Positions 158 to 59,489 of a stretch of DNA of 64,000 nucleotides are shown piece after piece. The notes below the pieces were generated by a model. That model did not search any database. It was not told the origin of the DNA and saw nothing but the letters and a program-made list of their open reading frames with translations. The position numbers and the translations under genes were made by a program. The stretch is from Escherichia phage sutha. The first letter of the stretch is position 1; every line of letters begins with the position of its first letter. The DNA lies in sequence record PV245934.1; one strand, given 5' to 3'.

Positions 158-649
158 ATGTTTGTAGATGATGTAACACGAGCGTTTGAATCTGGTGATT
201 TTGCTCGACCTAACTTATTCCAAGTAGAAATTTCTTATCTTGGACAAAATTTTACGTTTCAATGTAAAGCCACTGCTTTACCAGCTGGTATTGTAGAAAA
301 AATTCCAGTCGGATTTATGAACCGTAAAATTAACGTAGCAGGCGATCGTACATTCGATGACTGGACTGTTACAGTAATGAACGATGAGGCACATGATGCT
401 CGCCAGAAGTTTGTTGATTGGCAAAGCATTGCTGCTGGGCAAGGGAACGAAATTACTGGTGGAAAACCAGCAGAGTATAAAAAGAGTGCTATTGTACGCC
501 AATATGCTCGTGACGCTAAAACTGTAACAAAAGAAATCGAAATTAAAGGCTTGTGGCCTACCAACGTGGGTGAACTTCAATTAGATTGGGATTCAAACAA
601 TGAAATCCAAACCTTTGAAGTAACTCTCGCTCTCGATTATTGGGAATAA
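158..649 (+). CDS. 19: tail tube protein gp19
   Basis: 163 aa; MFVDDVTRAFESGDFARPNLFQVEISYLG... matches T4 gp19 by recall; synteny 19-20-67-68-21-22-23. Confidence 0.95.
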   Translation: MFVDDVTRAFESGDFARPNLFQVEISYLGQNFTFQCKATALPAGIVEKIPVGFMNRKINVAGDRTFDDWTVTVMNDEAHDARQKFVDWQSIAAGQGNEITGGKPAEYKKSAIVRQYARDAKTVTKEIEIKGLWPTNVGELQLDWDSNNEIQTFEVTLALDYWE

Positions 650-681
650 AATGAATGGGGAGAAATCCCCATCCTGCTTAA

Positions 682-2306
<1,625 letters not shown>

Positions 2307-2307
<1 letters not shown>

Positions 2308-2555
2308 TGGAAGGTTTAATTGAAGCTATTAAATCAAACGACCTCGTAGCCGCTCGTAAATTATTTGCTGAAGCCATGGCTGCAAGAACGATTGATTTAA
2401 TTAAAGAAGAAAAAATCGCTATCGCTCGTAATTTCTTAATCGAAGGTGAAGAACCTGATGATGAGGATGATGAAGACGAGGATGATGACGAAGATAGCGA
2501 TGATAAAGACGACAAAAAAGACAAAGACTCTGACGAAGACGAGGATGATGAATAA
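2307..2555 (+). CDS. 67: prohead core protein gp67, acidic D/E-rich C-terminus
   Basis: 82 aa, TAATG overlap with gene 20 stop; acidic tail [13 protein letters not shown]; position matches T4 gene 67. Confidence 0.85.
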
Positions 2556-2980
2556 TGCTTCTGATCCCTGAAACTCATGAATTAGTTCTCGAGAATGTCG
2601 AAGCACTTATTCCTGAAGCACAGGGTCGCTTTGACGAATTGTCTTCTGCTTTAAATAAAGACGATATAAATACAATTGTCGAGAATATGCTTGATGATGA
2701 AACTGATTTAGCAATTGCATTAGCTTCTATTAATGAAGATATGCCGCTAAATGAATTCATCGTTAAACATGTTTCTGCTCGTGGTGAAATTACACGTACT
2801 AAAGACCGCAAGACGCGTGAACGTAATGCATTTCAAACCACCGGGCTGTCTAAAGCAAAACGTAGACAAATTGCTCGCAAAGCTACCAAAACGAAGATTG
2901 CCAATCCAGCAGGTCAATCTCGTGCTCAGCGTAAGCGTAAAAAAGCTCTTAAACGCCGTAAAGCATTAGGATTAAGCTAA
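2555..2980 (+). CDS. 68: prohead core protein gp68
   Basis: 141 aa, start overlaps gene 67 stop; size and position match T4 gp68. Confidence 0.85.
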
Positions 2981-3618
2981 TGAATGAACCCCAATTACTA
3001 ATTGAAACTTGGGGTCAACCTGGCGAAATTATTGATGGTGTGCCAATGCTTGAATCCCACGATGGAAAAGACTTAGGTTTAAAACCTGGTTTATACATCG
3101 AAGGAATATTCATGCAAGCGGAAGTCGTCAATAGAAATAAACGTCTTTATCCAAAACGCATATTAGAAAAAGCGGTAAAAGACTATATCAATGAGCAAGT
3201 TTTAACTAAACAAGCTCTCGGAGAATTAAATCATCCTCCACGCGCTAATGTTGACCCGATGCAAGCCGCTATCATTATAGAAGATATGTGGTGGAAAGGA
3301 AATGACGTATACGGACGAGCTCGTGTTATTGAAGGTGACCATGGTCCTGGAGATAAATTAGCAGCTAATATTCGTGCCGGATGGATTCCAGGAGTTTCTT
3401 CTCGTGGATTAGGTTCATTGACTGACACAAATAAAGGTTATCGTATCGTAAACGAAGGATTCAAATTAACTGTAGGTGTTGATGCAGTATGGGGTCCAAG
3501 TGCTCCAGATGCATGGGTAACTCCTAAGGAAATTACCGAATCACAGACGGCGGAAGCCGATACAAGTGCCGATGACGCCTATATGGCTCTCGCAGAGGCC
3601 ATGAAAAAAGCGTTATAA
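2980..3618 (+). CDS. 21: prohead core scaffold protein and protease gp21
   Basis: 212 aa, size and position match T4 gp21 prohead protease. Confidence 0.9.
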   Translation: MNEPQLLIETWGQPGEIIDGVPMLESHDGKDLGLKPGLYIEGIFMQAEVVNRNKRLYPKRILEKAVKDYINEQVLTKQALGELNHPPRANVDPMQAAIIIEDMWWKGNDVYGRARVIEGDHGPGDKLAANIRAGWIPGVSSRGLGSLTDTNKGYRIVNEGFKLTVGVDAVWGPSAPDAWVTPKEITESQTAEADTSADDAYMALAEAMKKAL

Positions 3619-3648
3619 ATATTATTATCTAAACAACAGGACTACAAA

Positions 3649-4458
3649 ATGCTTAAAGAACAACTGATTGCTGAAGCGCAAAAAATTGATGCTTCCGTTG
3701 CTCTTGATAGTATTTTCGAATCAGTTAATATTTCTCCGGAAGCAAAAGAAACTTTCGGCACTGTATTCGAAGCTACCGTCAAGCAGCACGCCGTTAAATT
3801 AGCTGAATCTCATATCGCTAAAATTGCTGAAAAAGCAGAAGAAGAAGTAGAAAAAAATAAAGAAGAAGCCGAAGAAAAAGCTGAGAAGAAAATCGCTGAG
3901 CAAGCTTCTAAATTCATCGACCATCTTGCGAAAGAATGGCTCGCTGAAAATAAATTAGCAGTTGATAAAGGCATCAAAGCCGAACTGTTTGAATCCATGC
4001 TTGGTGGATTAAAAGAGCTCTTTGTTGAACACAACGTTGTTGTTCCAGAAGAATCAGTTGATGTTGTAGCTGAAATGGAAGAAGAGCTGCAAGAACATAA
4101 AGAAGAATCAGCTCGTCTGTTCGAAGAACTCAATAAGCGTGACGCATATATCAATTATGTGCAGCGTGAAGTGGCATTGAGCGAAAGTACTAAAGATCTG
4201 ACTGAGTCTCAAAAAGAAAAAGTCTCTGCTCTGGTCGAAGGTATGGATTATTCAGATGAATTCTCAAATAAATTGAGTGCCATCGTAGAAATGGTGAAGA
4301 AGTCTAATAAAGATGAAAGCACTATTACTGAGGGTATAAATACTCCTGATACTGAAGCAGTCGGACTGAATTTCGTCACTGAAGCTGTAGAAGATAAAGC
4401 TGCACCTGGTGCAGAAGATATTGTAAGTGTATATGCGAAAGTCGCATCTCGTTTCTAA
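3649..4458 (+). CDS. 22: major prohead scaffolding core protein gp22
   Basis: 269 aa, E/K-rich coiled-coil-like sequence; T4 gp22 size and position. Confidence 0.9.
   Translation: MLKEQLIAEAQKIDASVALDSIFESVNISPEAKETFGTVFEATVKQHAVKLAESHIAKIAEKAEEEVEKNKEEAEEKAEKKIAEQASKFIDHLAKEWLAENKLAVDKGIKAELFESMLGGLKELFVEHNVVVPEESVDVVAEMEEELQEHKEESARLFEELNKRDAYINYVQREVALSESTKDLTESQKEKVSALVEGMDYSDEFSNKLSAIVEMVKKSNKDESTITEGINTPDTEAVGLNFVTEAVEDKAAPGAEDIVSVYAKVASRF
4335..4342 (+). promoter_or_regulatory. late promoter TATAAATA inside 3' end of gene 22 (P23)
   Basis: Exact TATAAATA ~135 bp upstream of gene 23 ATG, as known for the T4 gene 23 late promoter. Confidence 0.6.
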
Positions 4459-4476
4459 TTTTAAAGGTTAACACAA

Positions 4477-6042
4477 ATGACTATCAAAACTAAAGCTGAA
4501 CTTTTGAACAAATGGAAGCCATTACTGGAAGGTGAAGGTTTACCGGAAATTGCTAATAGCAAACAAGCGATTATCGCTAAAATCTTTGAAAACCAGGAAA
4601 AAGATTTCCAGACAGCTCCAGAGTACAAAGACGAAAAAATCGCTCAGGCGTTCGGTTCTTTCTTAACAGAAGCTGAAATCGGTGGTGACCACGGTTACAA
4701 TGCTACTAACATCGCTGCTGGTCAGACTTCTGGCGCAGTAACTCAGATTGGCCCAGCTGTTATGGGTATGGTACGTCGTGCTATTCCTAACCTGATTGCT
4801 TTCGATATTTGTGGCGTTCAGCCGATGAACAGCCCGACTGGCCAGGTATTCGCACTGCGTGCAGTATATGGTAAAGACCCAATCGCTGCCGATGCTAAAG
4901 AAGCATTCCACCCAATGTATGGTCCAGATGCAATGTTCTCTGGTCAGGGTGCTGCTAAGAAATTCCCAGCTCTGGCTGCTAGCACACAAACCGTTGTAGG
5001 TGATATCTATACTCACTTCTTCCAGGAAACTGGTACTGTGTATCTGCAAGCTTCCGCTGTAGTAACAATCGATGCTAGTGCTAACGATGCAACTAAACTG
5101 GATGCTGAAATTAAGAAACAAATGGAAGCTGGTGTACTGGTAGAAATCGCTGAAGGTATGGCTACTTCTATCGCTGAACTTCAGGAAGGTTTCAACGGTT
5201 CTACCGATAACCCATGGAATGAAATGGGCTTCCGTATCGATAAACAAGTTATCGAAGCTAAATCTCGTCAGCTGAAAGCTGCTTACTCTATCGAATTAGC
5301 ACAAGACCTCCGCGCTGTTCACGGTATGGATGCTGATGCTGAACTGTCTGGTATTCTGGCTACAGAAATCATGCTGGAAATCAACCGTGAAGTTGTTGAT
5401 TGGATTAACTACTCAGCTCAGGTTGGTAAATCTGGTATGACCCTGACTCCGGGTTCTAAAGCTGGTGTATTTGACTTCCAGGATCCGATTGATATTCGTG
5501 GTGCTCGCTGGGCGGGTGAATCCTTTAAAGCTCTGTTGTTCCAGATTGACAAAGAAGCAGTTGAAATTGCTCGTCAGACCGGCCGTGGTGAAGGTAACTT
5601 CATTATCGCTTCCCGTAACGTAGTTAACGTTCTGGCTTCAGTTGATACCGGCATTTCTTATGCTGCGCAGGGTCTGGCTACCGGCTTTAATACTGATACT
5701 ACCAAGTCAGTATTTGCTGGTGTTCTGGGTGGTAAATACCGTGTATATATCGACCAGTATGCTAAACAGGATTATTTCACTGTAGGTTATAAAGGTCCGA
5801 ACGAAATGGATGCTGGTATTTACTATGCTCCATATGTAGCTCTGACTCCGCTGCGTGGTTCCGATCCGAAGAACTTCCAACCAGTAATGGGATTCAAAAC
5901 TCGTTACGGTATCGGTATCAACCCATTTGCAGAATCCGCTGCTCAGGCTCCGGCTTCTCGCATCCAGAGCGGTATGCCTTCTATTCTGAATAGCCTTGGT
6001 AAAAACGCTTACTTCCGCCGTGTATATGTTAAAGGTATCTAA
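4477..6042 (+). CDS. 23: major capsid protein gp23
   Basis: 521 aa; MTIKTKAELLNKWKPLLEGEGLPEIANSKQAIIAKIFENQ... matches T4 gp23 by recall. Confidence 0.97.
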   Translation: MTIKTKAELLNKWKPLLEGEGLPEIANSKQAIIAKIFENQEKDFQTAPEYKDEKIAQAFGSFLTEAEIGGDHGYNATNIAAGQTSGAVTQIGPAVMGMVRRAIPNLIAFDICGVQPMNSPTGQVFALRAVYGKDPIAADAKEAFHPMYGPDAMFSGQGAAKKFPALAASTQTVVGDIYTHFFQETGTVYLQASAVVTIDASANDATKLDAEIKKQMEAGVLVEIAEGMATSIAELQEGFNGSTDNPWNEMGFRIDKQVIEAKSRQLKAAYSIELAQDLRAVHGMDADAELSGILATEIMLEINREVVDWINYSAQVGKSGMTLTPGSKAGVFDFQDPIDIRGARWAGESFKALLFQIDKEAVEIARQTGRGEGNFIIASRNVVNVLASVDTGISYAAQGLATGFNTDTTKSVFAGVLGGKYRVYIDQYAKQDYFTVGYKGPNEMDAGIYYAPYVALTPLRGSDPKNFQPVMGFKTRYGIGINPFAESAAQAPASRIQSGMPSILNSLGKNAYFRRVYVKGI

Positions 6043-9021: not shown

Positions 9022-10152
9022 TTATGGATAGGTATAGATGATACCAGTTTCTAAAGCAGTTTTATGAATGATGTATCCATTGCGCGATTCTTGAACATCA
9101 ACTTCTGGATAGTCTTTCATCATCTTCTGAAGAGTGTAACGATGCAAGTAGTACTTACTATCTGGGTCGTCAGTTTTCCAATCTTTACCTTCTTCAGTCA
9201 TTTTTTGGATTTCATCCATAACCCACCAACCACACCAGATGTAAGCTGAAGTGCGATGTGGAAGAGGATGAACATAAGGTAATTCACCTTCTGGTTCTGG
9301 AGCAACTTTATCAGTTACCTGAACTTGACCTTCTGCTGTGATAGTTTTGCTATCATAATCAGTGGCAGTAACAGTTGCAGTAACTTCAATAGTTTGACTT
9401 CCAATAGATGATGTATCAACAGTGTATACATTAGTTGACCCTTCTACTGGAGAAGAATCTTTCTTCCATGAATATTCGATTTGTGCTTCTTCCGGAGCAT
9501 CCGTAACGTTAGCCGTAAATGTAGCCGAAGCATCTTGCTGAACATTAATAGAAGGAGGAGTCAATGTAACCTGTGGATTCATTGTCTTCTTATTAACAGT
9601 CAGTGATACTTCATTAGAAGTAACTTCCTTTGCATCATAATCTGTCGCGGTTACTTGGGCTACGCATTTAATTCTTTTTACTCCACTTGTAGTTGGAGTA
9701 TAGCTAAATGTAGCGGAAGTTGCTTCACTAACAGGAGAATCATCTACATGCCACTGATACGTAGCAGATGCGCCTGATGGTTGAGAAGCTAAAGCAGCAG
9801 TAAATTCAACAGGAGTTCCAATCACTCCAGCAGCAGGACTATCAGGAGTTACAGCTAAGGTAGTTGTCTGTGTCTTATTTTGAACTGTGATAGTTGTACT
9901 AATTTCTGCTGTTTCAGCTTCGGTATCAGGAATAGTATTTGTTGCAACAACTTTAATTGTTTTTGTTCCAGCAGGTCCTTTTAACACATAATCAAAAGTT
10001 TCTGCCGATCCTACTTGAGGAGCATCGTCTACACTCCATGCATAGGTAATAGTTCCACCTCCAGTTTCACCACTGGGTGTAGCAGTAAACTGCTGAGTCT
10101 GATCTATAACTCCAGTAGGTGTTTTAGGAGTTATATCAACTGTAAAAGCCAT
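9022..10152 (-). CDS. hoc: head outer capsid protein Hoc, three Ig-like repeats
   Basis: 376 aa; three ~90-aa repeats each ending in ...TATDYD...; T4 Hoc size and position. Confidence 0.93.
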   Translation of the reverse strand: MAFTVDITPKTPTGVIDQTQQFTATPSGETGGGTITYAWSVDDAPQVGSAETFDYVLKGPAGTKTIKVVATNTIPDTEAETAEISTTITVQNKTQTTTLAVTPDSPAAGVIGTPVEFTAALASQPSGASATYQWHVDDSPVSEATSATFSYTPTTSGVKRIKCVAQVTATDYDAKEVTSNEVSLTVNKKTMNPQVTLTPPSINVQQDASATFTANVTDAPEEAQIEYSWKKDSSPVEGSTNVYTVDTSSIGSQTIEVTATVTATDYDSKTITAEGQVQVTDKVAPEPEGELPYVHPLPHRTSAYIWCGWWVMDEIQKMTEEGKDWKTDDPDSKYYLHRYTLQKMMKDYPEVDVQESRNGYIIHKTALETGIIYTYP

Positions 10153-13033: not shown

Positions 13034-13276
13034 TTGGAGAAAAAGATGTTACTAGAATTTAAACAATTTCTTTATGAAGCTTCTATTGATGAATTTATGG
13101 GTAAAATTGCCTCTTGTCAAACATTAGAAGGTCTAGAAGAACTTGAAGCTTATTACAAGAAAAGAGTTAAAGAAACTGAATTAAAAGATACTGATGACAT
13201 CTCTGTGAGAGATGCTTTGGCAGGAAAAAGAGCTGAATTAGAAGATTCAGACGATGAAGTAGAAGAAAGCTTTTAA
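13034..13276 (+). CDS. UvsW.1 small acidic protein
   Basis: 80 aa ORF directly after uvsW, as T4 uvsW.1. Confidence 0.75.
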   Translation: MEKKMLLEFKQFLYEASIDEFMGKIASCQTLEGLEELEAYYKKRVKETELKDTDDISVRDALAGKRAELEDSDDEVEESF

Positions 13277-13330
13277 ATTAAAAAGGCCCAACCAAAAAGG
13301 AAGGGCCAAAACTATAGACTAAAGGTCACA

Positions 13331-13498
13331 CTATAGCAAAAGTTGTGTTTCATTTAATTGTTCTTCCGAACTTTCTGAAACTGGTAGTTCTTTAATGTAA
13401 TTATAACAAGGCCCAGGATGTACAGGACCTTTGTCTGTTTCAACAACCAATGCAGAATCGATTGGAGTTTTACAGACAACACAAATCTTATCTGACAT
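13331..13498 (-). CDS. small Cys-containing protein (uvsY.-2 position)
   Basis: 55 aa ORF found by hand (MSDKICVVCKTPIDS...), below the 60-aa track cutoff. Confidence 0.5.
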   Translation of the reverse strand: MSDKICVVCKTPIDSALVVETDKGPVHPGPCYNYIKELPVSESSEEQLNETQLLL

Positions 13499-13526
13499 GA
13501 TTGTCTCCTCTAAATTATATATCTAT

Positions 13527-49304: not shown

Positions 49305-52300
49305 ATGGCCGAGATTAAAAGAAAGTTCAGAGCAGAAGACGGTCTGGACGCAGGTGGCGATAAAATAATCAACGTAGCTTTAGCTGATCGTACCGTAGGA
49401 ACTGACGGTGTTAACGTTGATTACCTAATTCAAGAAAACACAGTTCAACAATACGATCCAACTCGTGGATATTTAAAAGATTTTGTAATCATTTATGATA
49501 ACCGCTTTTGGGCTGCTATAAATGATATTCCAAAACCGGCAGGAGCTTTTAATAGTGGACGCTGGAGAGCATTACGTACAGATGCTAACTGGATTACAGT
49601 CTCATCTGGTTCATATCAATTAAAATCTGGTGAAGCTATTTCGGTTAACACTGCAGCTGGTAATGATATTACATTTACTTTGCCATCTACCCCAATTGAT
49701 GGTGATACTATCGTTCTCCAAGACATTGGAGGAAAACCTGGGGTTAACCAAGTTTTAATTGCAGCTTCAGTACAAAGTATTGTAAACTTTAGAGGTGAAC
49801 AAGTACGTTCAGTACTAATGACTCATCCAAAGTCGCAGTTAGTTTTAATTTTTAGTAATCGTCTGTGGCAAATGTATGTAGCTGATTATAGTAGAGAAGC
49901 TGTAGTTGTAACACCAGCGAATACTTATCAAGCGCAATCCAACGATTTTATCGTACGTAGATTTACTTCTGCTGCACCAATTAATGTTAAACTTCCAAGA
50001 TTTGCTAATCATGGCGATATTATTAATTTCGTCGATTTAGATAAACTAAATCCGCTTTATCATACAATTGTTACTACATACGATGAAACGACTTCAATAC
50101 AAGAAGTTGGAACTCATTCCATTGAAGGCCGTACAACGATTGACGGTTTCTTGATGTTTGATGATAATGAGAAATTGTGGAGATTGTTTGACGGGGATAG
50201 TAAAGCGCGTTTACGCATTATAACGACTAATTCTAATATTCGTCCAAATGAAGAAGTTATGGTATTTGGTGCGAATAACGGAACAGCTCAGACAATTGAA
50301 CTTCAGCTTCCGACTGATATTTCTGTTGGTGATACTGTCAAAATTTCCATGAATTACATGCGAAAAGGACAAACAGTTAAAATCAAAGCTGCCGGTGAAG
50401 ATAAAATTGCTTCTTCAGTTCAATTGCTGCAATTCCCAAAACGTTCAGAATATCCGCCTGAAGCTGAATGGGTAACTGTTCAAGAATTAGTTTTTAACGG
50501 TGAAACTAATTATGTTCCAGTTTTACAACTTGCTTATATAGAAGATTCTGACGGAAAATACTGGGTTGTACAACAAAACGTTCCAACCGTAGAAAGAGTT
50601 GATTCTTTGAATGATTCTACTAGAGCAAGATTAGGCGTGATTGCTTTAGCTACACAAGCGCAAGCTAATGTCGATTTAGAAAATTCTCCACAAAAAGAAT
50701 TAGCAATTACTCCAGAAACATTAGCTAACCGTACTGCTACAGAAACTCGTAGAGGTATCGCAAGAATAGCAACTACTGCTCAAGTGAATCAGAACACTAC
50801 ATTCTCTTTTGCTGACGATATTATCATCACTCCTAAAAAGCTGAATGAAAGAACTGCTACAGAAACTCGCAGAGGTGTTGCTGAAATTGCGACACAGCAA
50901 GAAACTAATGCAGGTACTGATGATACTACAATCATCACTCCTAAAAAGCTTCAAGCTCGTCAAGGTTCTGAATCATTATCTGGTATCGTAACCTTTGTAT
51001 CTACCGCAGGAGCTACTCCAGCTTCTAGCCGTGAATTAAATGGTACAAATGTTTACAATAAAAACACTAATAATTTAGTCGTTTCGCCTAAAGCTCTGGA
51101 TCAGTATAAAGCTACTCCAACACAGCAAGGTGCAGTAATTTTAGCAGTTGAAAGTGAAGTAATTGCTGGACAAAGCCAAGAAGGATGGGCAAATGCGGTT
51201 GTAACACCAGAAACGTTACATAAAAAGACATCAACTGATGGAAGAATTGGTTTAATTGAAATTGCTACGCAAAGTGAAGTTAATACAGGAACTGATTATA
51301 CTCGTGCAGTCACTCCTAAAACTTTAAATGACCGTATAGCAACTGAAAGTTTAAGTGGTATAGCTGAAATTGCTGCACAAGTTGAATTCGACGCAGGCGT
51401 CGACGATACTCGTATCTCTACACCATTAAAAATTAAAACTAGATTTAATAGTACTGATCGTACTTCTGTTGTTGCTCTATCTGGATTAGTTGAATCAGGA
51501 ACTCTCTGGGACCATTATACCCTTAATATTCTTGAAGCAAATGAGACACAGCGTGGTACACTTCGTGTGGCTACACAAGTTGAAGCTGCTGCAGGAACAT
51601 TAGATAATGTTTTAATAACTCCTAAAAAGCTTTTAGGTACTAAATCTACTGAAGCACAGGAAGGTGTTATTAAAGTTGCAACTCAGTCTGAAACTGTGAC
51701 TGGAACGTCAGCAAATACTGCTGTATCTCCAAAAAATTTAAAATGGATTGTGCAGAGTGAACCTACTTGGGCAGCTACTACTGCGATAAGAGGCTTTGTT
51801 AAAACTTCATCTGGTTCAATTACATTCGTTGGTAATGATACAGTTGGTTCAACGCAGTCGTTAGAATTATACGAGAAAAATAGCTATGCAGTATCACCGT
51901 ATGAATTAAACCGTGTATTAGCAAATTATTTGCCATTAAAAGCAAAAGCTGCTGACGCAAATTTATTAGATGGCCTAGATTCATCTCAGTTCATTCGTAG
52001 GGACATTGCACAGACGGTTAATGGTTCACTAACCTTAACCCAACAAACGAATCTGAGTGCCCCTCTTGTATCATCTAGTACTGCTACGTTTGGTGGTTCA
52101 GTTTCGGTAAATAGTACATTAACTATTTCTAATACTGGAACGGCAACTCGTCTGATTTTTGAAAAAGGACCTCAAACTGGAACTAACCCAGCACAGACAA
52201 TGAGCATCCGTGTATGGGGTAACCAGTATGGTGGCGGTTCAGATACAACACGTTCTACCGTATTTGAAGTTGGTGATGAAACGTCTAATCACTTTTATTC

Positions 52301-53174
52301 TCAACGCAATAAAGCCGGGAATATAACGTTTAGTATCAATGGTACTGTAATGCCAATAAATGTTAATGCTTCAGGTTCTTTGAACGCGAACGGCGTTGCA
52401 ACATTTGGTAGTTCAGTTACTGCTAATGGTGAATTCATCAGCAAGTCTGCAAATGCTTTCAGAGCAATAAATGGAAATTACGGATTCTTTATTCGTAATG
52501 CTGGTAATGACACCTATTTTATGCTCACTGCAGCCGGTGATCAGAGCGGTGGATATAATGGATTACGTCCATTATCAATTAATAATCAATCCGGTCAGGT
52601 TACAATTGGTGAAAGCTTAATTATTGCTAAAGGTGTTACTATAAATTCAGGTGGTTTAACTGTTAACTCGAGAATTCGTTCTCAGGGTACTAAAACCGCT
52701 GATTTATACACCCGTGCACCGACATCTGATACTGTAGGATTCTGGTCAATTGACATTAATGATTCGGCCACTTATAACCAGTTCCCAGGTTATTTTAAAA
52801 TGGTTGAAAAAACTAATGAAGTGACTGGACTTCCATACTTAGAACGTGGCGAAGAAGTTAAATCTCCTGGTACTTTGACTCAGTTTGGTAACACACTTGA
52901 TTCTCTTTACCAAGATTGGATTACTTATCCAACAACTCCAGAAGCACGTACAACCCGTTGGACGCGTACATGGCAGAAAACTAAAAATTCTTGGTCGAGT
53001 TTTGTTCAGGTATTTGATGGAGGTAACCCTCCTCAGCCGTCTGATATCGGTGCTTTGCCATCTGATAATGCTACAATGGGGAATCTTACTATTCGTGATT
53101 TCTTACGAATTGGTAATGTTCGCATTATTCCTGACCCAGTGAATAAATCTGTTAAATTTGAATGGATTGAATAA
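49305..53174 (+). CDS. 34: long tail fibre proximal subunit gp34
   Basis: 1289 aa; internal repeats of ...TETRRG(I/V)A(R/E)IAT...ITPKKL...; same length as T4 gp34. Confidence 0.95.
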   Translation: MAEIKRKFRAEDGLDAGGDKIINVALADRTVGTDGVNVDYLIQENTVQQYDPTRGYLKDFVIIYDNRFWAAINDIPKPAGAFNSGRWRALRTDANWITVSSGSYQLKSGEAISVNTAAGNDITFTLPSTPIDGDTIVLQDIGGKPGVNQVLIAASVQSIVNFRGEQVRSVLMTHPKSQLVLIFSNRLWQMYVADYSREAVVVTPANTYQAQSNDFIVRRFTSAAPINVKLPRFANHGDIINFVDLDKLNPLYHTIVTTYDETTSIQEVGTHSIEGRTTIDGFLMFDDNEKLWRLFDGDSKARLRIITTNSNIRPNEEVMVFGANNGTAQTIELQLPTDISVGDTVKISMNYMRKGQTVKIKAAGEDKIASSVQLLQFPKRSEYPPEAEWVTVQELVFNGETNYVPVLQLAYIEDSDGKYWVVQQNVPTVERVDSLNDSTRARLGVIALATQAQANVDLENSPQKELAITPETLANRTATETRRGIARIATTAQVNQNTTFSFADDIIITPKKLNERTATETRRGVAEIATQQETNAGTDDTTIITPKKLQARQGSESLSGIVTFVSTAGATPASSRELNGTNVYNKNTNNLVVSPKALDQYKATPTQQGAVILAVESEVIAGQSQEGWANAVVTPETLHKKTSTDGRIGLIEIATQSEVNTGTDYTRAVTPKTLNDRIATESLSGIAEIAAQVEFDAGVDDTRISTPLKIKTRFNSTDRTSVVALSGLVESGTLWDHYTLNILEANETQRGTLRVATQVEAAAGTLDNVLITPKKLLGTKSTEAQEGVIKVATQSETVTGTSANTAVSPKNLKWIVQSEPTWAATTAIRGFVKTSSGSITFVGNDTVGSTQSLELYEKNSYAVSPYELNRVLANYLPLKAKAADANLLDGLDSSQFIRRDIAQTVNGSLTLTQQTNLSAPLVSSSTATFGGSVSVNSTLTISNTGTATRLIFEKGPQTGTNPAQTMSIRVWGNQYGGGSDTTRSTVFEVGDETSNHFYSQRNKAGNITFSINGTVMPINVNASGSLNANGVATFGSSVTANGEFISKSANAFRAINGNYGFFIRNAGNDTYFMLTAAGDQSGGYNGLRPLSINNQSGQVTIGESLIIAKGVTINSGGLTVNSRIRSQGTKTADLYTRAPTSDTVGFWSIDINDSATYNQFPGYFKMVEKTNEVTGLPYLERGEEVKSPGTLTQFGNTLDSLYQDWITYPTTPEARTTRWTRTWQKTKNSWSSFVQVFDGGNPPQPSDIGALPSDNATMGNLTIRDFLRIGNVRIIPDPVNKSVKFEWIE

Positions 53175-53182
53175 GAGGTATT

Positions 53183-54298
53183 ATGGAAAAATTTATGGCA
53201 GAGTTTGGACAAGGATATGTCCAAACGCCATTTTTATCGGAAAGTAATTCAGTAAGATACAAAATAAGTATAGCGGGTTCTTGCCCGCTTTCTACTGCAG
53301 GACCATACGTTAAATTTCAAGATAATCCGGTTGGAAGTCAAACATTTAGCGCAGGTCTTCATCTAAGAGTTTTTGACCCTTCTACAGGAGCATTAGTTGA
53401 TAGTAAGTCATATGCTTTTTCGACTTCAAATGATACTACATCAGCTACTTTTGTTAGTTTCATGAATTCTTTGACGAATAATAGACTTGTTGCTATATTA
53501 ACTAGTGGAAAAGTTAATTTTCCTCCTGAAGTAGTATCTTGGCTAAGAACCACAGGAACGTCTGCTTTTCCATCTGATTCTGTATTGTCAAGATTCGACG
53601 TGTCATATGCTGCTTTTTACACTTCTTCTAAAAGAGCTATTGCATTAGAGCATGTTAAATTAAGTAATAGAAAAAGCACAGATGACTATCAAACTATTTT
53701 AGATGTTGTATTTGACAGTTTAGAAGATGTTGGAGCTACCGGATTTCCAAGAAGAACGTATGAAAGCATCGAGCAATTTATGTCAGCGGTTGGCGGAACT
53801 AATAACGAAATTGCGCGTTTGCCAACTTCAGCTGCTATAAGTAAACTCTCTGATTATAATTTAATTCCTGGCGATGTTCTTTATCTCAAAGCACAGTTAT
53901 ATGCTGATGCCGATTTACTTGCGCTTGGAACTACAAATATATCTATCCGTTTTTATAACGCATCGAATGGATATATTTCTTCAACACAAGCTGAGTTTAC
54001 CGGACAAGCTGGGTCTTGGGAATTAAAGGAAGATTATGTAGTTGTTCCAGAAAACGCTGTGGGATTTACGATATATGCACAAAGAACTGCGCAAGCTGGT
54101 CAAGGTGGCATGAGAAATTTAAGCTTTTCTGAAGTGTCAAGAAATGGAGGTATTTCGAAACCTGCTGAATTTGGCGTCAATGGCATTCGTGTTAATTATA
54201 TCTGTGAATCTGCTTCACCTCCGGATATAATGGTACTTCCTACGCAAGCATCGTCTAAAACTGGTAAAGTGTTTGGGCAAGAATTTAGAGAAGTATAA
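53183..54298 (+). CDS. 35: long tail fibre hinge protein gp35
   Basis: 371 aa, position between genes 34 and 36. Confidence 0.9.
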   Translation: MEKFMAEFGQGYVQTPFLSESNSVRYKISIAGSCPLSTAGPYVKFQDNPVGSQTFSAGLHLRVFDPSTGALVDSKSYAFSTSNDTTSATFVSFMNSLTNNRLVAILTSGKVNFPPEVVSWLRTTGTSAFPSDSVLSRFDVSYAAFYTSSKRAIALEHVKLSNRKSTDDYQTILDVVFDSLEDVGATGFPRRTYESIEQFMSAVGGTNNEIARLPTSAAISKLSDYNLIPGDVLYLKAQLYADADLLALGTTNISIRFYNASNGYISSTQAEFTGQAGSWELKEDYVVVPENAVGFTIYAQRTAQAGQGGMRNLSFSEVSRNGGISKPAEFGVNGIRVNYICESASPPDIMVLPTQASSKTGKVFGQEFREV

Positions 54299-54360: not shown

Positions 54361-55023
54361 ATGGCTGATTTAAAAGTAGGTTCAACAACTGGAGGCTCTG
54401 TCATTTGGCATCAAGGAAATTTTCCATTGAATCCAGCCGGTGACGATGTACTCTATAAATCATTTAAAATATATTCAGAATATAATAAACCACAAGCTGC
54501 AGATAACGATTTCGTTTCTAAAGCTAATGGTGGTACTTATGCCGCGACTGTTCGATTTAATGGAGGAGTACATGTTCCTACTATAGGTAGTAGTCAACAG
54601 TGCGGCGTTTATCCAGGCAACGGTGATGCAGCTACTTTTGCTATGGCAAATATTGACATCGTTTCATGGAATGGTATTGGTTTTAAATCATCACAAGGTT
54701 CAGCAGACCGAACTGTTGTAATTAATGCACGTAATGGTGATATTAGTACAAAAGGCGTCGTGACAGCAGTAGGTCAAATAAGAAGTAATGCAGTTTCTCC
54801 TGTATCAGCAAATGACCTTACTAGAAAGGACTATGTTGATGGAGCAATAAATACTGTTACGGCAAATGCGAACTCTAGAGTGTTACGATCTGGTGACACT
54901 ATGACGGGTAACTTAACCGCACCAAACTTTTTCTCGCAGAATCCTGCATCTCAACCTTCACACGTTCCACGATTTGACCAAATCGTAATTAAGGATTCTG
55001 TTCAAGATTTCGGCTATTATTAA
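54361..55023 (+). CDS. 36: long tail fibre distal connector gp36
   Basis: 220 aa, position and size as T4 gp36. Confidence 0.9.
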
Positions 55024-55031
55024 GAGGACTT

Positions 55032-58000
55032 ATGGCTACTTTAAAACAAATACAATTTAAAAGAAGCAAAACTGCAGGTGCACGTCCTGCTGCTTCAGTA
55101 TTAGCCGAAGGTGAATTGGCTATAAACTTAAAAGATAGAACAATTTTTACTAAAGATGATTCAGGAAATATCATTGATTTAAGCATTTCCGCTGGCGGTA
55201 ATATCAGTGGAAATATCACTCAAACTGGCGATTATTTACAAAATGGAACATATAATCTTAATGGAAACCAGTTTGTTTATGCAGGAAAATATATTGAATT
55301 TTTACCTAAAACTGCTGGCAATGGTGCTTGGGCAAATCAACACAAAAATAAAGCTCCTATCTTTACCGATTTGAGTTCAACGACTTCTACTTCAGAATAC
55401 CATCCGCTAATTAAACAACGCTATAAAGATGGAACTTTTTCTGTTGGTACGTTAGTAAACGAAGGTAGTTTTAAAATTCAATATATCAATGAATCTGGTG
55501 ATTCAAAATATTGGACTTTTAATCGTAACGGTAGTTTTATTGTAGATAATGGCAGTATTGAAGTCCGTGCAGGTAATATTTCTGCATCAGGCAATATTAA
55601 CTCGGCAACTGGATTTGTTTCTGCACCGCGCGTCAATACAAAAAATATTAACCTGAGTTCTAAAACCTTTATACCGAATAATGACACGGGTTATGACATT
55701 GTTTCTTTACCTACTTGGATTTATAATCCACCAGCAGATGGTTCTGACCGTGATACAAACGGATTGAACTACATGCGTAAAATGCGGGCTTCAAATACTT
55801 CTAGCATTTTCCATGAAGTAGTTGACTGTCGTTCGGGAAAACCACAAGAAATTTCTTGGTGGACCGGCGTAGGACCTTCATCTTTCCAGTGGGCGTTTGA
55901 TACCTCTGGACGTATTACCGCAGGTAAATCTATTTCAGTAGGTCTTCCTGATAGTGGTACAAATGGTCGTTATCCTTTAGATTCTGCAATTTCTATTGGT
56001 ATTGCGATTGGCGATAACGATACCGGTATTAAATGGGTCCGCGATGGCGTTTATGACCTGATGGCTAACGGTATTTCATCCGCTACCATTTTGAATAATG
56101 GTATTAATAGTACTAAAAAATTGATGGTTGGTTATAGCCGTGATTCCGGCTCTACTTGGGATTTCCCAAATAACAACCAAGCAATGTTTACTGCGCGTAC
56201 CGATATTGATGGTAATAATAACGGCGATGGTCAGACTCATATTGGTTATAGCAGCAATTCTAAAATGTATCACTATTTCCGTGGCACGGGTCGTATGGCT
56301 GTCGGAATGGCTGAAGGTTTAATTGTTGAGCCGGGTATTTTAGATATTAAAACTGGGTCCAATAGAGTTGCTATTAGAGCAGATGGCACATTTGACTCAA
56401 CCCAACGTATTTCAATGCGTACTGGATTATTTTTATCAGGTGATGATAATACCAATGCTTTGTCATTTAAAGCGCCTACAGGTGTTGACGGGACAAAAAC
56501 CATTAACTGGGATGCAGGCACTCGTAATGGTCAGAATAAAAATACTGTAACCATTAAAGCGTGGGGTAACTCATTTAACTCAACTCCAGGTAATAGAGAA
56601 ACTGTATTCGAAGTTTCAGATTCACAAGGTTATTATTTCTACGCTCAACGCACTAATCCTGCGTCAGGTCAAACAGTAGGTCCGGTTAACTTTAAATTTA
56701 ACGGAACTGTCGAAACAGGCCATATCATAGGCCTTGGAAATATAAGTGCCTCCGGTACAGGTTCTTTCGGTGGCAATGTTACCATGTCTAAAGGTTTGTT
56801 TGTCCAAGGTGGTTCTTCTATTACTGGACAAGTTAAAATCGGCGGAACTGCTGATGCATTAAGAATTTGGAATGCTGAATATGGTGCTATTTTCCGTCGC
56901 TCGGAAAGTAATCTTTATATTATCCCGACTCCTAAAGGTGCTGGTGAAAGTGGTGGAATAAGTAATCTCCGCCCATTAAGTATTAGTCTTAATAATGGTA
57001 TGGTACAAATGCGCCATTCTGTTACATTAGGTGATGATGGGTTAGGCGGCAATATGGTTACTGTTGATAATGATAGTAAACTTGTCGTGGTAACTTCTAA
57101 TACCAGATTAAGCCCTAATTTCCGCATGCAAATAGGCCACTCGTCTTATATTGATGTTGAATGCACTAACTCTGTTCGCCCGGCAGGTGCTGGTTCGTTT
57201 GCTTCACAGAATAACGAAAATATTCGTGCACCGTTCTATATGAATATCGACCGTGGTGATAATAGTACTTATATTCCAATTTTGAAGCAACGTTACGTTC
57301 AAGGAGATAGTACTTATTCTATTGGTACCTTGATTTCTCAGGGAGACTTCCGCGTCCATTATCACCAGGGAACTAGCACCAATGGCGTAGATTTGGGTTG
57401 GGAATTCCGTCGCACAGGCGATTTCCGCGCGGCAGGTAAAATTATTGCCGGCGCTGCCACTCTTGGCACTGATGGTAATATTACTGGTGGTTCTGGTAAT
57501 TTTGCTAACTTAAACAGTACAATTGAATCACTTAAAACTGATATTGTTTCAAGTTATCCTATTGGAGCTCCAATTCCATGGCCTACAGATACTCCTCCTA
57601 ACGGTTACGCTATTATGGAAGGTCAGACCTTTGATAAGTCTGCATATCCAAAGCTAGCTGTTGCATATCCTAGCGGTGTTATTCCAGATATGCGCGGGCA
57701 AACTATCAAAGGTAAACCAAGTGGTCGTGCTGTTTTGAGCACAGAAGAAGATGGTGTTAAGGCTCATAGCCATAGCGCATCTGCTTCAAGTACTGACTTA
57801 GGCACTAAAACCACATCAAGCTTTGACTATGGTACGAAGAACACTAATAGTACTGGTGCTCACACTCACTCTGTAAGTGGTACAACAAGTGCTGCTGGTA
57901 ACCACGCTCATCACTTAGGTCTACTATTAGTTAACGGCGGTGCTGCTTTGTACGGTTATACAACCATTGGTAACAGTCTACCTAGAACACTTGACTGGCT

Positions 58001-58232
58001 TGACAGAAGAGACAATAAGTTCCCTAACACTAACACAACTGGTAACCATACACACACATGGTCTGGTACTACAAGCGGTGCTGGTGACCATTCCCACTCT
58101 GTAGGTATTGGTGCTCATACCCACACGGTAGCGATTGGTTCGCATGGTCATACTATCACTGTAAATAGTACAGGTAATACAGAAAACACGGTTAAAAACA
58201 TTGCTTTTAACTATATCGTTCGTTTAGCATAA
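55032..58232 (+). CDS. 37: long tail fibre distal subunit gp37 (receptor-binding)
   Basis: 1066 aa; C-terminal His-x-His repeats ([41 protein letters not shown]) and end [11 protein letters not shown] as in T4-type gp37. Confidence 0.93.
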
Positions 58233-58237
58233 GGAGA

Positions 58238-58251
58238 GGGGCTTCGGCCCC
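58238..58251 (+). terminator. hairpin GGGGC-ttcg-GCCCC
   Basis: Perfect stem with UUCG loop between genes 37 and 38. Confidence 0.55.
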
Positions 58252-58259
58252 TTCTAAAT

Positions 58260-58811
58260 ATGAAAATCTATCATTATTATTTTGACACAAAAGAATTTTA
58301 CAAAGAAGAAAATTACAAACCGATTAAAGGTCTTGGTCTTCCTGCTCATTCAACAATTAAAAAACCTTTAGAACCTAAAGAAGGATACGCGGTTGTATTT
58401 GATGAACGTATTCAGGATTGGATTTATGAAGAAGACCATCGCGGCAAACGAGCATGGACTTTTAATAAAGAAGAAATTTTTATAAATGACATTGGAAGCC
58501 CAGTTGGTATAACTTTTGATGAACCCGGCGAATTTGACATATGGACTGATGATGGTTGGAAAGAAGATGAAACATATAAACGGGTTTTAATTCGTAATAG
58601 AAAAATTGAAGAATTATATAAAGAATTCCAAGTATTGAGTAATATGATCGAAGCTTCAGCTGCAAATAAAAAGGAAAAATTCTATCATCAAAACCTTAAA
58701 CGGTTCTTTGCTCTTTTAGAAAAGCATGAGCATTTAGGTGGTGAATTCCCTGCATGGCCTGAAAAAGAACGGAAGCCTTGGTATAAGCGTTTATTCAAGC
58801 ATTACGTATAA
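58260..58811 (+). CDS. 38: tail fibre assembly chaperone gp38 (T4 type)
   Basis: 183 aa; T4-type short gp38 rather than the longer T2-type adhesin gp38. Confidence 0.85.
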   Translation: MKIYHYYFDTKEFYKEENYKPIKGLGLPAHSTIKKPLEPKEGYAVVFDERIQDWIYEEDHRGKRAWTFNKEEIFINDIGSPVGITFDEPGEFDIWTDDGWKEDETYKRVLIRNRKIEELYKEFQVLSNMIEASAANKKEKFYHQNLKRFFALLEKHEHLGGEFPAWPEKERKPWYKRLFKHYV

Positions 58812-58832: not shown

Positions 58833-59489
58833 ATGTCAGCACCTAGAATATCATTTTCGCCCTCTGATATTCTGTTGGGTGTTCTAGATCGCTTGTTCAA
58901 AGATAACGCTACCGGGAATGTTCTTGCTTCCCGGGTAGCTGTCGTAATTCTTTTATTTATGATGGCGATTGTTTGGTATAGGGGAGATAGTTTCTTTGAG
59001 TACTATAAGCAATCAAAGTATGAAACATACAGTGAAATTATTGAAAAGGAAAGAAATGCACGCTTTGAATCTGTCGCCCTGGAACAACTCCAGATAGTTC
59101 ATATATCATCTGAGGCAGACTTTAGTGCGGTGTATTCTTTCCGCCCTAAAAACTTAAACTATTTTGTTGATATTATAGCATATGAAGGAAGATTACCTTC
59201 AACAATAAGTGAAAAATCACTTGGAGGATATCCTGTTGATAAAACTATGGATGAATATACAGTTCATTTAAATGGACGTCATTATTATTCCAACTCAAAA
59301 TTTGCTTTTTTGCCAACTAAAAAGCCTACTCCCGAAATAAACTACATGTACAGTTGTCCATATTTTAATTTGGATAACATCTATGCTGGAACAATAACCA
59401 TGTACTGGTATAGAAATGATCATATAAGTAATGACCGCCTTGAATCAATATGTTCTCAGGCGGCCAGAATATTAGGAAGGGCTAAATAA
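58833..59489 (+). CDS. t: holin T
   Basis: 218 aa; ...PRISFSPSDILLGVLDRLFKDNATGNVLASRVAVVILLFMMAIVWYRGD... single TM and large periplasmic domain; matches T4 holin by recall. Confidence 0.95.
   Translation: MSAPRISFSPSDILLGVLDRLFKDNATGNVLASRVAVVILLFMMAIVWYRGDSFFEYYKQSKYETYSEIIEKERNARFESVALEQLQIVHISSEADFSAVYSFRPKNLNYFVDIIAYEGRLPSTISEKSLGGYPVDKTMDEYTVHLNGRHYYSNSKFAFLPTKKPTPEINYMYSCPYFNLDNIYAGTITMYWYRNDHISNDRLESICSQAARILGRAK

What the first reader, a model, noticed from the sequence alone, without database searches (positions are those of the whole stretch)
57720..58232. gp37 C-terminal His-x-His repeat needle with T4-type short gp38
The distal tail fibre ends with repeated HxH motifs ([41 protein letters not shown]) consistent with a metal-coordinating tip, and gp38 is the 183-aa chaperone type rather than the T2-type adhesin. 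gp37 is 1066 aa versus the 1026 aa I recall for T4, so the receptor-binding region probably differs, which bears on host range.
Basis: partly seen in the sequence, partly recalled or inferred. Interest (0 to 1): 0.4.

Follow-up and report, generated by a model that had tools for sequence, protein, structure and literature searches.

The report
T4-type tail-fibre tip with swapped head
This is the ordinary receptor-binding end of a T4-like phage's long tail fibre, with its T4-type folding chaperone, but the roughly 39-residue extreme tip that touches the host is not T4's: it sits in a ~270-base cassette shared with Felix O1-like phages, so host recognition probably differs from T4.

Summary
Window 55032-58232 (+) encodes a 1066-aa gp37, and 58260-58811 encodes a 183-aa gp38 that is 95% identical to the T4 chaperone. 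The last 252 aa of gp37 match the T4 gp37 tip crystal structure 2XGF (E 1e-111). All seven needle His-x-His motifs are in register with T4's seven iron sites.

Of the 40 extra residues, 29 lie in the strongly diverged shaft and 11 in the tip subdomain.

The segment nt ~57830-58100 is unlike T4, at 27-40% nt identity in its core. It is 93% identical to long-tail-fibre genes of Felixounavirus phages (Z31, ECML-1). The flanks on both sides are 93-100% T4-like. The breakpoints fall in conserved FDYGTK and DHSHSVG blocks.

Every T4 residue mapped to OmpC or LPS contact lies in the replaced stretch. The closest characterised carrier of this head, AV122 (94.5% aa identity), depends on the LPS outer core; no tested outer-membrane-protein deletion, OmpC included, was reported to block it. 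I therefore infer an LPS-core-binding or dual-receptor tip.

This is a new allele combination of a well-known modular system, not a new kind of thing. Interest is low to moderate.

The parts
55032..58232 (+). gene 37, long tail fibre distal subunit (1066 aa)
   Evidence: ORF. It hits PHROG 1699 'long tail fiber protein distal subunit' at E 5e-261 and is 58.5% identical to T4 gp37 overall. It lies after gp34, gp35 and gp36 and before gp38 and holin t, as in T4.
55032..55181 (+). conserved N-terminal 50 aa, the joint to gp36
   Evidence: 96% identical to T4. The function is inferred from the T4 fibre assembly order (PMC9603124).
55182..57473 (+). diverged shaft (aa 51-814), carrying +29 of the 40 extra residues
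   Evidence: Identity to T4 is 18-54% over aa 51-500 and 40-80% over aa 501-814. Pfam Gp34_trimer hits aa 519-651.
57549..57761 (+). collar domain D10, first part (aa 840-910, equivalent to T4 811-881)
   Evidence: Pfam Collar PF07484 hits aa 845-892 at E 2.6e-11. Domain limits are transferred from PMC6957217.
57762..57911 (+). needle stem, ascending strand (aa 911-960), with HxH at 57765-57773, 57861-57869 and 57903-57911
   Evidence: The third motif is HAHH, with an extra His next to the tip.
57912..58028 (+). tip ('head') subdomain, aa 961-999: 39 aa against 28 aa in T4 (932-959), the presumed receptor-contact surface
   Evidence: No meaningful identity to T4 here. The enclosing 73-aa segment (aa 945-1017) is 97% aa identical to the Felixounavirus Z31 fibre and 94.5% to AV122 and SHBML-50-1.
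58029..58178 (+). needle stem, descending strand (aa 1000-1049), with HxH at 58047-58055, 58089-58097, 58116-58124 and 58143-58151
58179..58229 (+). collar domain D10, second part (aa 1050-1066)
   Evidence: 100% identical to T4.
57830..58100 (+). recombinant head cassette (aa ~934-1023), Felixounavirus-like and flanked by T4-like sequence
   Evidence: At sites where T4 and Z31 differ, the window follows T4 up to 57827, follows Z31 from 57842 to 58085 (about 100 sites, 4 exceptions), and follows T4 again from 58106. The cassette is 93.0% nt identical to Z31 and ECML-1, 98.5% to N2 and 95.9% to BYEP01.
58235..58255 (+). GC-rich UUCG hairpin between an SD-like AAGGAG (58231-58236) and the gene 38 ATG
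   Evidence: Predicted fold is -15.6 kcal/mol, and the hairpin is conserved in T4 with a one-base difference. Its role as a split ribosome-binding site is recalled from the T4 literature and was not tested.
58260..58811 (+). gene 38, T4-type tail-fibre assembly chaperone (183 aa)
   Evidence: 174/183 identical to T4 gp38. It hits PHROG 105. The exact sequence occurs in phage W143.

Best explanation

By homology to the T4 tip structure 2XGF, three gp37 chains form a collar and then a six-stranded beta needle. The axis of the needle is held by seven metal (iron) ions, each bound by the HxH motif of all three chains. The chain turns at a small head and runs back to the collar. gp38, together with gp57A encoded elsewhere, assists folding and is not part of the virion.

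The head and the distal third of the needle (nt ~57830-58100) are not T4's. They form a cassette shared at about 93% nt identity with the long tail fibre of Felixounavirus phages. It was exchanged by recombination within the conserved FDYGTK and DHSHSVG 'His-box' blocks that flank it.

All T4 residues known to contact OmpC or LPS lie inside the replaced part. The fibre should therefore recognise a different surface feature from T4. My best inference is a sugar of the LPS outer core, possibly alongside a porin.

Shown here: gene identities, homology to 2XGF, HxH register, mosaic boundaries, and the distribution of the cassette. Inferred: metal binding, trimer architecture, chaperone dependence, and receptor identity.
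For: Identity and architecture:
- The tip hits 2XGF at E 1.3e-111 over aa 815-1066.
- The seven HxH motifs are in register with T4, against 1.2 expected by chance.
- The Collar domain is present.
- gp38 is 95% identical to T4 gp38 and hits PHROG 105.
- Gene order is gp34-35-36-37-38-t, as in T4.

Mosaic:
- The 30-nt identity profile and the informative-site analysis give breakpoints at 57828-57841 and 58086-58105.
- The cassette is 93.0% nt identical to Felixounavirus Z31 and ECML-1, while the flanks are 0-50% identical to them and 93-100% identical to T4.
- 35 phage records carry at least 80% of the cassette core. About 30 are Felixounavirus and 5 are Tequatrovirus records, representing 4 phages (N2, BYEP01, SHBML-50-1 deposited twice, AV122).
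- A parallel case exists: T4's own head cassette is 93.0% nt identical, ungapped over 287 nt, to Felixounavirus VpaE1 gp75.

Receptor:
- The T4 receptor-contact residues G938, T939, V941, G943, Y949, Y953 and A955 (PMC5221442), and the alanine-scan-critical residues I933-Y949 (PMC6957217), all fall in T4 932-959. In the window this stretch is replaced by an unrelated 39-aa segment.
- AV122, whose head is 94.5% identical, fails on ECOR4 waaR and waaC mutants. No outer-membrane protein was assigned to it from the panel of deletion mutants, which included ompC (PMC10844046).
- Felixounavirus phages are LPS-dependent (PMC8594841, PMC4690856, bioRxiv 10.64898/2026.07.23.740414).
Against: - No receptor experiment exists for this phage.
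- The window's head differs from AV122's at 4 of 73 residues, including D971A in a locally variable stretch (aa 968-971; NGGA here, NGGD in BYEP01, AV122 and Z31, IGDD in N2).
- In two large genetic screens, all T4-type-gp37 phages tested used OmpC despite extensive allelic variation in this subdomain (bioRxiv 10.64898/2026.04.02.716166 and 10.64898/2026.07.23.740414).
- Felixounavirus virions carry two fibres with gp37-like tips. Their LPS dependence therefore cannot be assigned to the long-fibre head.
- LPS truncation can reduce porin function indirectly.
- Metal binding and trimerisation are inferred from homology. A single-chain AF2 model was uninformative (pLDDT 38.8).
Confidence: 0.85

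Rival explanations
1. The variant head is simply another OmpC-binding allele. Like other T4-type gp37 fibres, it docks on the OmpC trimer, and the sequence change only tunes which OmpC loop variants are recognised.
For: [quoted passage not shown] All T4-like phages on O157:H7 used OmpC. JK42 and JK45, which share parts of this gp37 but not its head, are OmpC binders.
Against: None of those OmpC binders is shown to carry this head. The only characterised carrier, AV122, was not assigned OmpC from a deletion panel that included ompC, and it failed on waaR. The same head sits on fibres of Felixounavirus phages, which are described as not using protein receptors. None of the T4 OmpC-contact residues is conserved.
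Confidence: 0.3
2. The similarity between the Tequatrovirus and Felixounavirus heads reflects an ancient shared polymorphism or convergence, not recent exchange.
For: gp37-like tips are old and widespread, in lambda Stf, phiNP and more than 200 other phages (PMC9659904). GC content of the cassette (0.454) does not differ from its upstream flank (0.44).
Against: The cassette is 93% nt identical, including at synonymous sites, while the adjacent sequence is 0-50% identical, with sharp boundaries in conserved motifs. The window's cassette is as close to the Felixounavirus copies (93.0%) as to the Tequatrovirus AV122 and SHBML copies (92.2% and 90.7%). A second allele shows the same pattern between T4 and VpaE1.
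Confidence: 0.04
3. The gene is a non-functional or mis-assembled chimera.
For: The closest relative of the cassette, phage N2, is deposited with a frameshift in gene 37.
Against: The window ORF is intact over 1066 aa with all structural motifs. The same architecture is intact in BYEP01, AV122 and SHBML-50-1, which are plaque-forming isolates. The N2 defect is a single-base deletion.
Confidence: 0.02

Closest known systems
Phage T4 gp37 receptor-binding tip (PDB 2XGF) with the gp38 chaperone
   Same: The collar, the seven-HxH iron needle and the C-terminal 60 aa are the same: about 90-100% identical outside the head. gp38 is 95% identical, the gene order is the same, and the gp37-gp38 intergenic hairpin is conserved.
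   Different: The tip subdomain is 39 aa rather than 28 aa and unrelated in sequence, so none of the mapped OmpC or LPS contact residues is present. The shaft is only 20-50% identical and 29 aa longer.
gp37 of Escherichia phages BYEP01 (OR757453) and N2 (ON645936)
   Same: These are the closest whole-gene relatives, at 93.6% and 91.4% nt over gp37 plus gp38. The tip is 98.4% and 95.7% aa identical, with the same head allele and the same seven-HxH needle.
   Different: They are not identical. The window's exact gp37 is absent from a 15-billion-protein collection. There are differences at aa 968-971 and 979. N2's gene is frameshifted as deposited.
gp37 of Escherichia phage AV122 and Shigella phage SHBML-50-1
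   Same: They have the same head allele (94.5% aa) on a T4-type collar, with a T4-type gp38. AV122 is the only carrier with receptor data, which show LPS outer-core dependence (PMC10844046).
   Different: Their needle has eight HxH motifs, through paired duplications (SSFDYGTKT on the ascending strand, VGIGAHTHS on the descending strand). Their shafts are different.
Felixounavirus long tail fibre (Z31 QHB48954, ECML-1; structural model Bas63 gp27, PMC12609058)
   Same: The head cassette is identical in type: 97% aa and 93% nt over about 270 nt, including the unusual HAHH motif. The overall collar, HxH needle and head design is shared.
   Different: Everything outside the cassette is unrelated in sequence. 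The fibre is about 795 aa with six HxH motifs, a different collar and a different C-terminus. No detectable gp38 homologue lies downstream.
T4/lambda-type RBP tip family with Tfa-like assembly proteins (lambda Stf/Tfa, phiNP ORF6; PMC9659904)
   Same: The modular ~215-aa tip has its divergence concentrated in the specificity region, and an assembly-protein gene lies immediately downstream. The window's gp38 is about 30% identical to lambda Tfa.
   Different: The window belongs to the T4 sub-branch. The specific head allele was not found in 5,426 complete E. coli genomes, so it was not seen in prophages.

Membership tests
T4-type gp37 receptor-binding tip (2XGF architecture) | Sequence homology across the collar and both needle strands | tested here: met
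   phmmer E 1.3e-111; aa 815-1066 align to 2XGF residues 2-242.
T4-type gp37 receptor-binding tip (2XGF architecture) | Seven HxH motifs in register with the T4 iron sites | tested here: met
   Window H912, 944, 958, 1006, 1020, 1029 and 1038 correspond to T4 H883, 915, 929, 966, 980, 989 and 998. Chance expectation is 1.2.
T4-type gp37 receptor-binding tip (2XGF architecture) | Phage tail collar domain preceding the needle | tested here: met
   Pfam PF07484 at aa 845-892, 43.7 bits against a cut-off of 24.
T4-type gp37 receptor-binding tip (2XGF architecture) | Homotrimer with iron ions on the axis | not testable with these tools
   Only a monomer could be modelled, and the model was uninformative (pLDDT 38.8).
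T4-type gp37 receptor-binding tip (2XGF architecture) | Encoded as the last fibre gene after gp34, gp35 and gp36 | tested here: met
   ORFs 49305-53174, 53183-54298 and 54361-55023 precede it. Pfam Phage_T4_gp36 hits the last of these, and the order matches T4.
T4 head allele (OmpC plus E. coli B LPS binding) | Conservation of the T4 tip residues needed for receptor binding (I933, N937, G938, G940, G942, G943, S947, Y949; Nik/Nib/Arl positions 939, 941, 943, 953, 955) | tested here: not met
   The aligned stretch (window aa 961-999) is unrelated and 11 aa longer. The residue list is from PMC6957217 and PMC5221442.
T4-type gp38 assembly chaperone (not the T2/T6 adhesin) | About 183 aa, homologous to T4 gp38 and lambda Tfa | tested here: met
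   174/183 identical to T4 gp38. It hits PHROG 105 at E 5e-43 and matches lambda Tfa at 31% identity. There was no Pfam hit at E 0.01.
T4-type gp38 assembly chaperone (not the T2/T6 adhesin) | Located immediately downstream of gene 37 | tested here: met
   The gap is 27 nt: the stop codon ends at 58232 and the ATG is at 58260.
T4-type gp38 assembly chaperone (not the T2/T6 adhesin) | Required for gp37 folding and absent from the virion | not testable with these tools
   Needs genetics or proteomics.
Felixounavirus long tail fibre | Homology along the whole fibre (baseplate-binding N-terminus, beta-helix repeats, short six-HxH needle) | tested here: not met
   Only aa 909-1034 align to the Z31 fibre, and nt identity outside 57812-58111 is 0-50%. 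Only the head cassette is shared, not family membership.

The most novel reading that the evidence does not exclude
The ~270-nt head cassette may be a self-contained, scaffold-independent receptor-binding module that moves repeatedly between two unrelated virulent phage lineages, Straboviridae gp37 and Ounavirinae long tail fibres, by recombination at the His-box motifs.

At least two alleles would each be shared at about 93% nt identity: this one with Z31 and ECML-1, and T4's own with VpaE1. On this reading the module folds on fibres with or without a gp38 chaperone and specifies an LPS outer-core sugar. This phage would then be an OmpC-independent, LPS-only binder among the T4-type fibres.
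Probability: 0.35. Interest if true: 0.45.

Novelty: new member of a known kind. Interest (0 to 1): 0.22.

Why it matters
The head subdomain of gp37 decides which bacteria a T4-type phage can attach to. Knowing that this phage carries the Felixounavirus/AV122-type head predicts a host range governed by LPS core type rather than, or in addition to, OmpC. That is useful when choosing or engineering phages for cocktails.

The clean breakpoints inside conserved His-box motifs mark natural splice points. A ~270-nt cassette could be transplanted between fibre scaffolds at those points. None of this overturns current understanding. Modular exchange of tail-fibre tips, and variability of this subdomain, are well documented.

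Tried and rejected
- A tblastn search of the 72-aa head peptide against the phage collection returned nothing. A search of the 81-aa cassette against the 5.8-billion-protein index also returned nothing: only 4 candidates shared short words and none scored. The longer tip query and the DNA queries did find the relatives, so I treat these two results as uninformative. One possible cause is low-complexity masking of the Gly/Ser/Thr/His-rich sequence.
- Scans of IMG/VR used an exact degenerate DNA pattern and then a fully back-translated pattern for [13 protein letters not shown]. A scan of JGI metagenome contigs used the back-translated pattern. All found nothing. That pattern does match the window and five of the fetched loci. 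This head allele is therefore seen so far only in isolate genomes.
- The cassette is absent from 5,426 complete E. coli genomes, so no prophage reservoir was found.
- A single-sequence AlphaFold2 model of the 252-aa tip was unusable (mean pLDDT 38.8). This is expected for one chain of an intertwined trimer. No fold search was run on it.
- GC content does not indicate the direction of transfer (0.454 in the cassette against 0.44 in the flank).
- The Bartual et al. 2010 structure paper is not held. Domain limits were taken from PMC6957217 instead.
- I considered whether the 40-aa length difference marks the tip. It is mostly in the shaft.
Full report
**What is there**

The window is part of a Tequatrovirus (T4-like) genome. 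A 25-kb stretch upstream is 93-96% identical to many Tequatrovirus isolates. The local gene order is:
- gp34 at 49305-53174
- gp35 at 53183-54298
- gp36 at 54361-55023
- gp37 at 55032-58232
- gp38 at 58260-58811
- holin t at 58833-59489

This order is exactly as in T4. All quoted peptide motifs are present.

There are seven HxH motifs in this stretch, at aa 912, 944, 958, 1006, 1020, 1029 and 1038. Shuffling the same 170 residues gives a mean of 1.2, and none of 20,000 shuffles reached seven. gp37 is 1066 aa and gp38 is 183 aa. The T4 reference has 1026 and 183 aa.

**Identity of the parts**

The C-terminal 252 aa of gp37 align end to end with the crystallised T4 gp37 tip, PDB 2XGF, at E 1.3e-111. 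The Pfam Collar domain is present at aa 845-892.

I transferred the published T4 domain limits (PMC6957217: collar 811-881 and 1010-1026, stem 882-931 and 960-1009, tip 932-959). This gives for the window:
- collar: aa 840-910 and 1050-1066
- needle stem: aa 911-960 and 1000-1049
- tip subdomain: aa 961-999

The seven HxH motifs are in exact register with T4 H883, 915, 929, 966, 980, 989 and 998. In the T4 structure these coordinate seven iron ions along the trimer axis (PMC6957217, PMC12609058).

gp38 is 174/183 identical to the T4 chaperone. It matches PHROG 105 'tail fiber assembly' and is distantly related to lambda Tfa. It is therefore the chaperone type, not the T2/T6 adhesin type. Metal binding, trimer formation and chaperone dependence are inferences from this homology and were not tested here.

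**How gp37 differs from T4**

Overall identity is 58.5%, distributed as follows:
- The first 50 aa, the gp36 joint, are 96% identical.
- The shaft, aa 51-500, is only 18-54% identical and carries a net +29 residues.
- The collar and most of the needle are 86-100% identical.
- aa 951-1000 drop to 22%.

The tip subdomain is 39 aa against 28 aa in T4 (+11) and has no meaningful similarity. However, about three quarters of the length difference lies in the shaft.

**The head is a cassette shared with another phage family**

A DNA search with nt 57850-58080 found 35 phage records covering at least 80% of it. Five are Tequatrovirus records, representing four phages: N2, BYEP01, SHBML-50-1 (deposited twice) and AV122. 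About thirty are Felixounavirus (Ounavirinae), including ECML-1, Z31, P54, the LMP, KhF and LF82/LF110 series, and others.

A 30-nt identity profile and an informative-site analysis agree. The window follows T4 up to nt 57827. It follows the Felixounavirus Z31 sequence from 57842 to 58085, at about 100 informative sites with four exceptions. It follows T4 again from 58106.

The two crossover intervals lie in blocks conserved in both lineages. These encode FDYGTK and DHSHSVG, the 'His-box' type motifs long proposed as recombination points in T-even fibre genes. That proposal is my recollection of Tetart et al.; those papers are not held in the library.

The 271-nt cassette is 93.0% identical to Z31 and ECML-1. 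Among Tequatrovirus carriers it is 98.5% identical to N2, 95.9% to BYEP01, 92.2% to AV122 and 90.7% to SHBML-50-1. It is thus no more diverged across families than within Tequatrovirus. Outside the cassette, the Felixounavirus fibre (795 aa, six HxH, different collar and C-terminus) is unrelated at the sequence level.

The reciprocal case also exists. T4's own head cassette is 93.0% identical, ungapped over 287 nt, to gp75 of Felixounavirus VpaE1. At least two head alleles are therefore each shared between the two lineages.

I found the window's allele nowhere else:
- not in 5,426 complete E. coli genomes
- not in IMG/VR
- not in JGI metagenome contigs

The search pattern was validated on the window and on fetched loci.

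**What it probably does**

In T4, every residue mapped to receptor contact lies in residues 932-959, which are replaced here:
- V941, G943 and A955 for OmpC
- G938 and T939 for the terminal glucose of E. coli B LPS
- Y953 for altered LPS recognition (PMC5221442)
- the alanine-scan-critical residues I933, N937, G938, G940, G942, G943, S947 and Y949 (PMC6957217)

The only characterised carrier of the window's head type is AV122, which is 94.5% aa identical over the 73-aa head segment. It plated on ECOR4 but not on waaR or waaC mutants. No outer-membrane protein was assigned to it from the deletion panel, which covered ompC, ompA, ompF, tsx, fadL, lamB, btuB, fhuA, tolC and others. The authors concluded that it depends on the LPS outer core, while noting that an unidentified protein receptor cannot be excluded (PMC10844046).

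Felixounavirus phages are described as LPS-dependent:
- Bas63 needs an intact core (PMC8594841).
- VpaE1 binds truncated or E. coli B core and is insensitive to proteinase K (PMC4690856).
- TP11 and TP15 need the terminal GlcIII of the R3 core (bioRxiv 10.64898/2026.07.23.740414).

I therefore favour an LPS outer-core-binding head, perhaps alongside a porin, at roughly 50-60% confidence.

The main counter-argument comes from two large genetic screens. All T4-type-gp37 phages tested used OmpC despite 'extensive allelic variation' in this very subdomain (bioRxiv 10.64898/2026.04.02.716166). None of those phages is shown to carry this allele.

Positions 968-971 vary among carriers: NGGA here, NGGD in BYEP01, AV122 and Z31, and IGDD in N2. 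Position 979 also varies (I or V). This local variation would fit a receptor-contact role, but that is untested.

**Comparison with what is known, and novelty**

This is a member of the T4-type gp37/gp38 system. All sequence-testable defining features are met. The single feature not met, T4's own receptor-contact residues, defines the T4 allele and not the family.

Variation concentrated in the gp37 head is already reported for AV phages (PMC10844046), for OmpC-binding Straboviridae, and for the wider T4/lambda RBP-tip family of more than 200 phages (PMC9659904). The structural resemblance of Felixounavirus fibre tips to T4 gp37 is also published (PMC12609058, PMC4690856).

I did not find in those papers a description of the near-identical (93% nt) head cassettes shared across the two families, with defined breakpoints.

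The exact gp37 protein is absent from a 15-billion-sequence collection, whereas its gp38 is identical to that of phage W143. The nearest gp37 genes are those of BYEP01 (93.6% nt) and N2.

Verdict: a correct and essentially ordinary annotation, a new allele combination of a known modular system. The cross-family cassette observation and the host-range prediction are modestly interesting.

**Dead ends**

- Short-peptide protein searches of the head returned nothing and are uninformative.
- A single-chain AF2 model of the tip was unusable (pLDDT 38.8).
- GC content does not give the direction of transfer.

Noticed in passing
L001 (T4) 9234-9520 and L006 (VpaE1) 13240-13526: T4's own head cassette is 93.0% nt identical, ungapped over 287 nt, to the long tail fibre gp75 of Felixounavirus VpaE1. 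In the 28-aa tip the two differ only at V941R, N944D, I951V and A955T. Positions 941 and 955 are two of the three T4 'Nik' positions whose mutation abolishes OmpC-dependent adsorption. This fits VpaE1 binding E. coli B LPS but not K-12 (PMC4690856, PMC5221442).
   Followed up: partly
L007 (AV122) 613-3816 and L008 (SHBML-50-1) 739-3816: These gp37 proteins carry the same head allele as the window but have eight needle HxH motifs. They have matched duplications on the two needle strands: SSFDYGTKT ascending and VGIGAHTHS descending. The needle appears to have been lengthened by one metal site.
   Followed up: partly
window 58231-58262: An SD-like AAGGAG lies 24 nt upstream of the gene 38 ATG. 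The two are separated by a stable GAGGGGC-UUCG-GCCCCUUC hairpin (-15.6 kcal/mol) that is conserved in T4. From memory of the T4 literature, this is the 'split ribosome-binding site' of gene 38, where the hairpin brings the SD and the AUG together.
   Followed up: partly
L002 (Z31) 4450-5015; whole phage collection: Felixounavirus fibres with the same head have no gp38-like gene downstream, only 65-aa and 123-aa hypothetical ORFs. 'Felixounavirus' does not appear among the ten most frequent first words of organism names in a tblastn search with gp38; this is indirect, because many Felixounavirus records are named 'Escherichia phage' or 'Salmonella phage'. The shared head may therefore fold without a T4-type chaperone, or with an unrelated one.
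   Followed up: partly
L005 (phage N2) 1501-4703: Gene 37 of phage N2 is annotated only as a misc_feature. Relative to the window, the deposited sequence has a single-base deletion at the position equivalent to window 58006, which frameshifts the tip. This is either a sequencing error or a fibre-defective stock.
   Followed up: partly
window 58260-58811 versus 55032-58232: gp38 is 100% identical to that of Escherichia phage W143 (MZ189262), but W143 is not among the top 40 of 788 matches for gene 37 plus gene 38. The exact gp37 is not in the 15-billion-protein collection. The fibre gene and its chaperone seem to have different nearest relatives.
   Followed up: no
window 56586-56984 (gp37 aa 519-651) and gp34 49305-53174: A shaft segment of gp37 matches the Pfam family Gp34_trimer, the C-terminal trimerisation domain of the proximal fibre. 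Similar peptides (…VWGN…TVFEV…FY.QR…) are visible in the gp34 translation. This is a module shared between the proximal and distal half-fibres.
   Followed up: no
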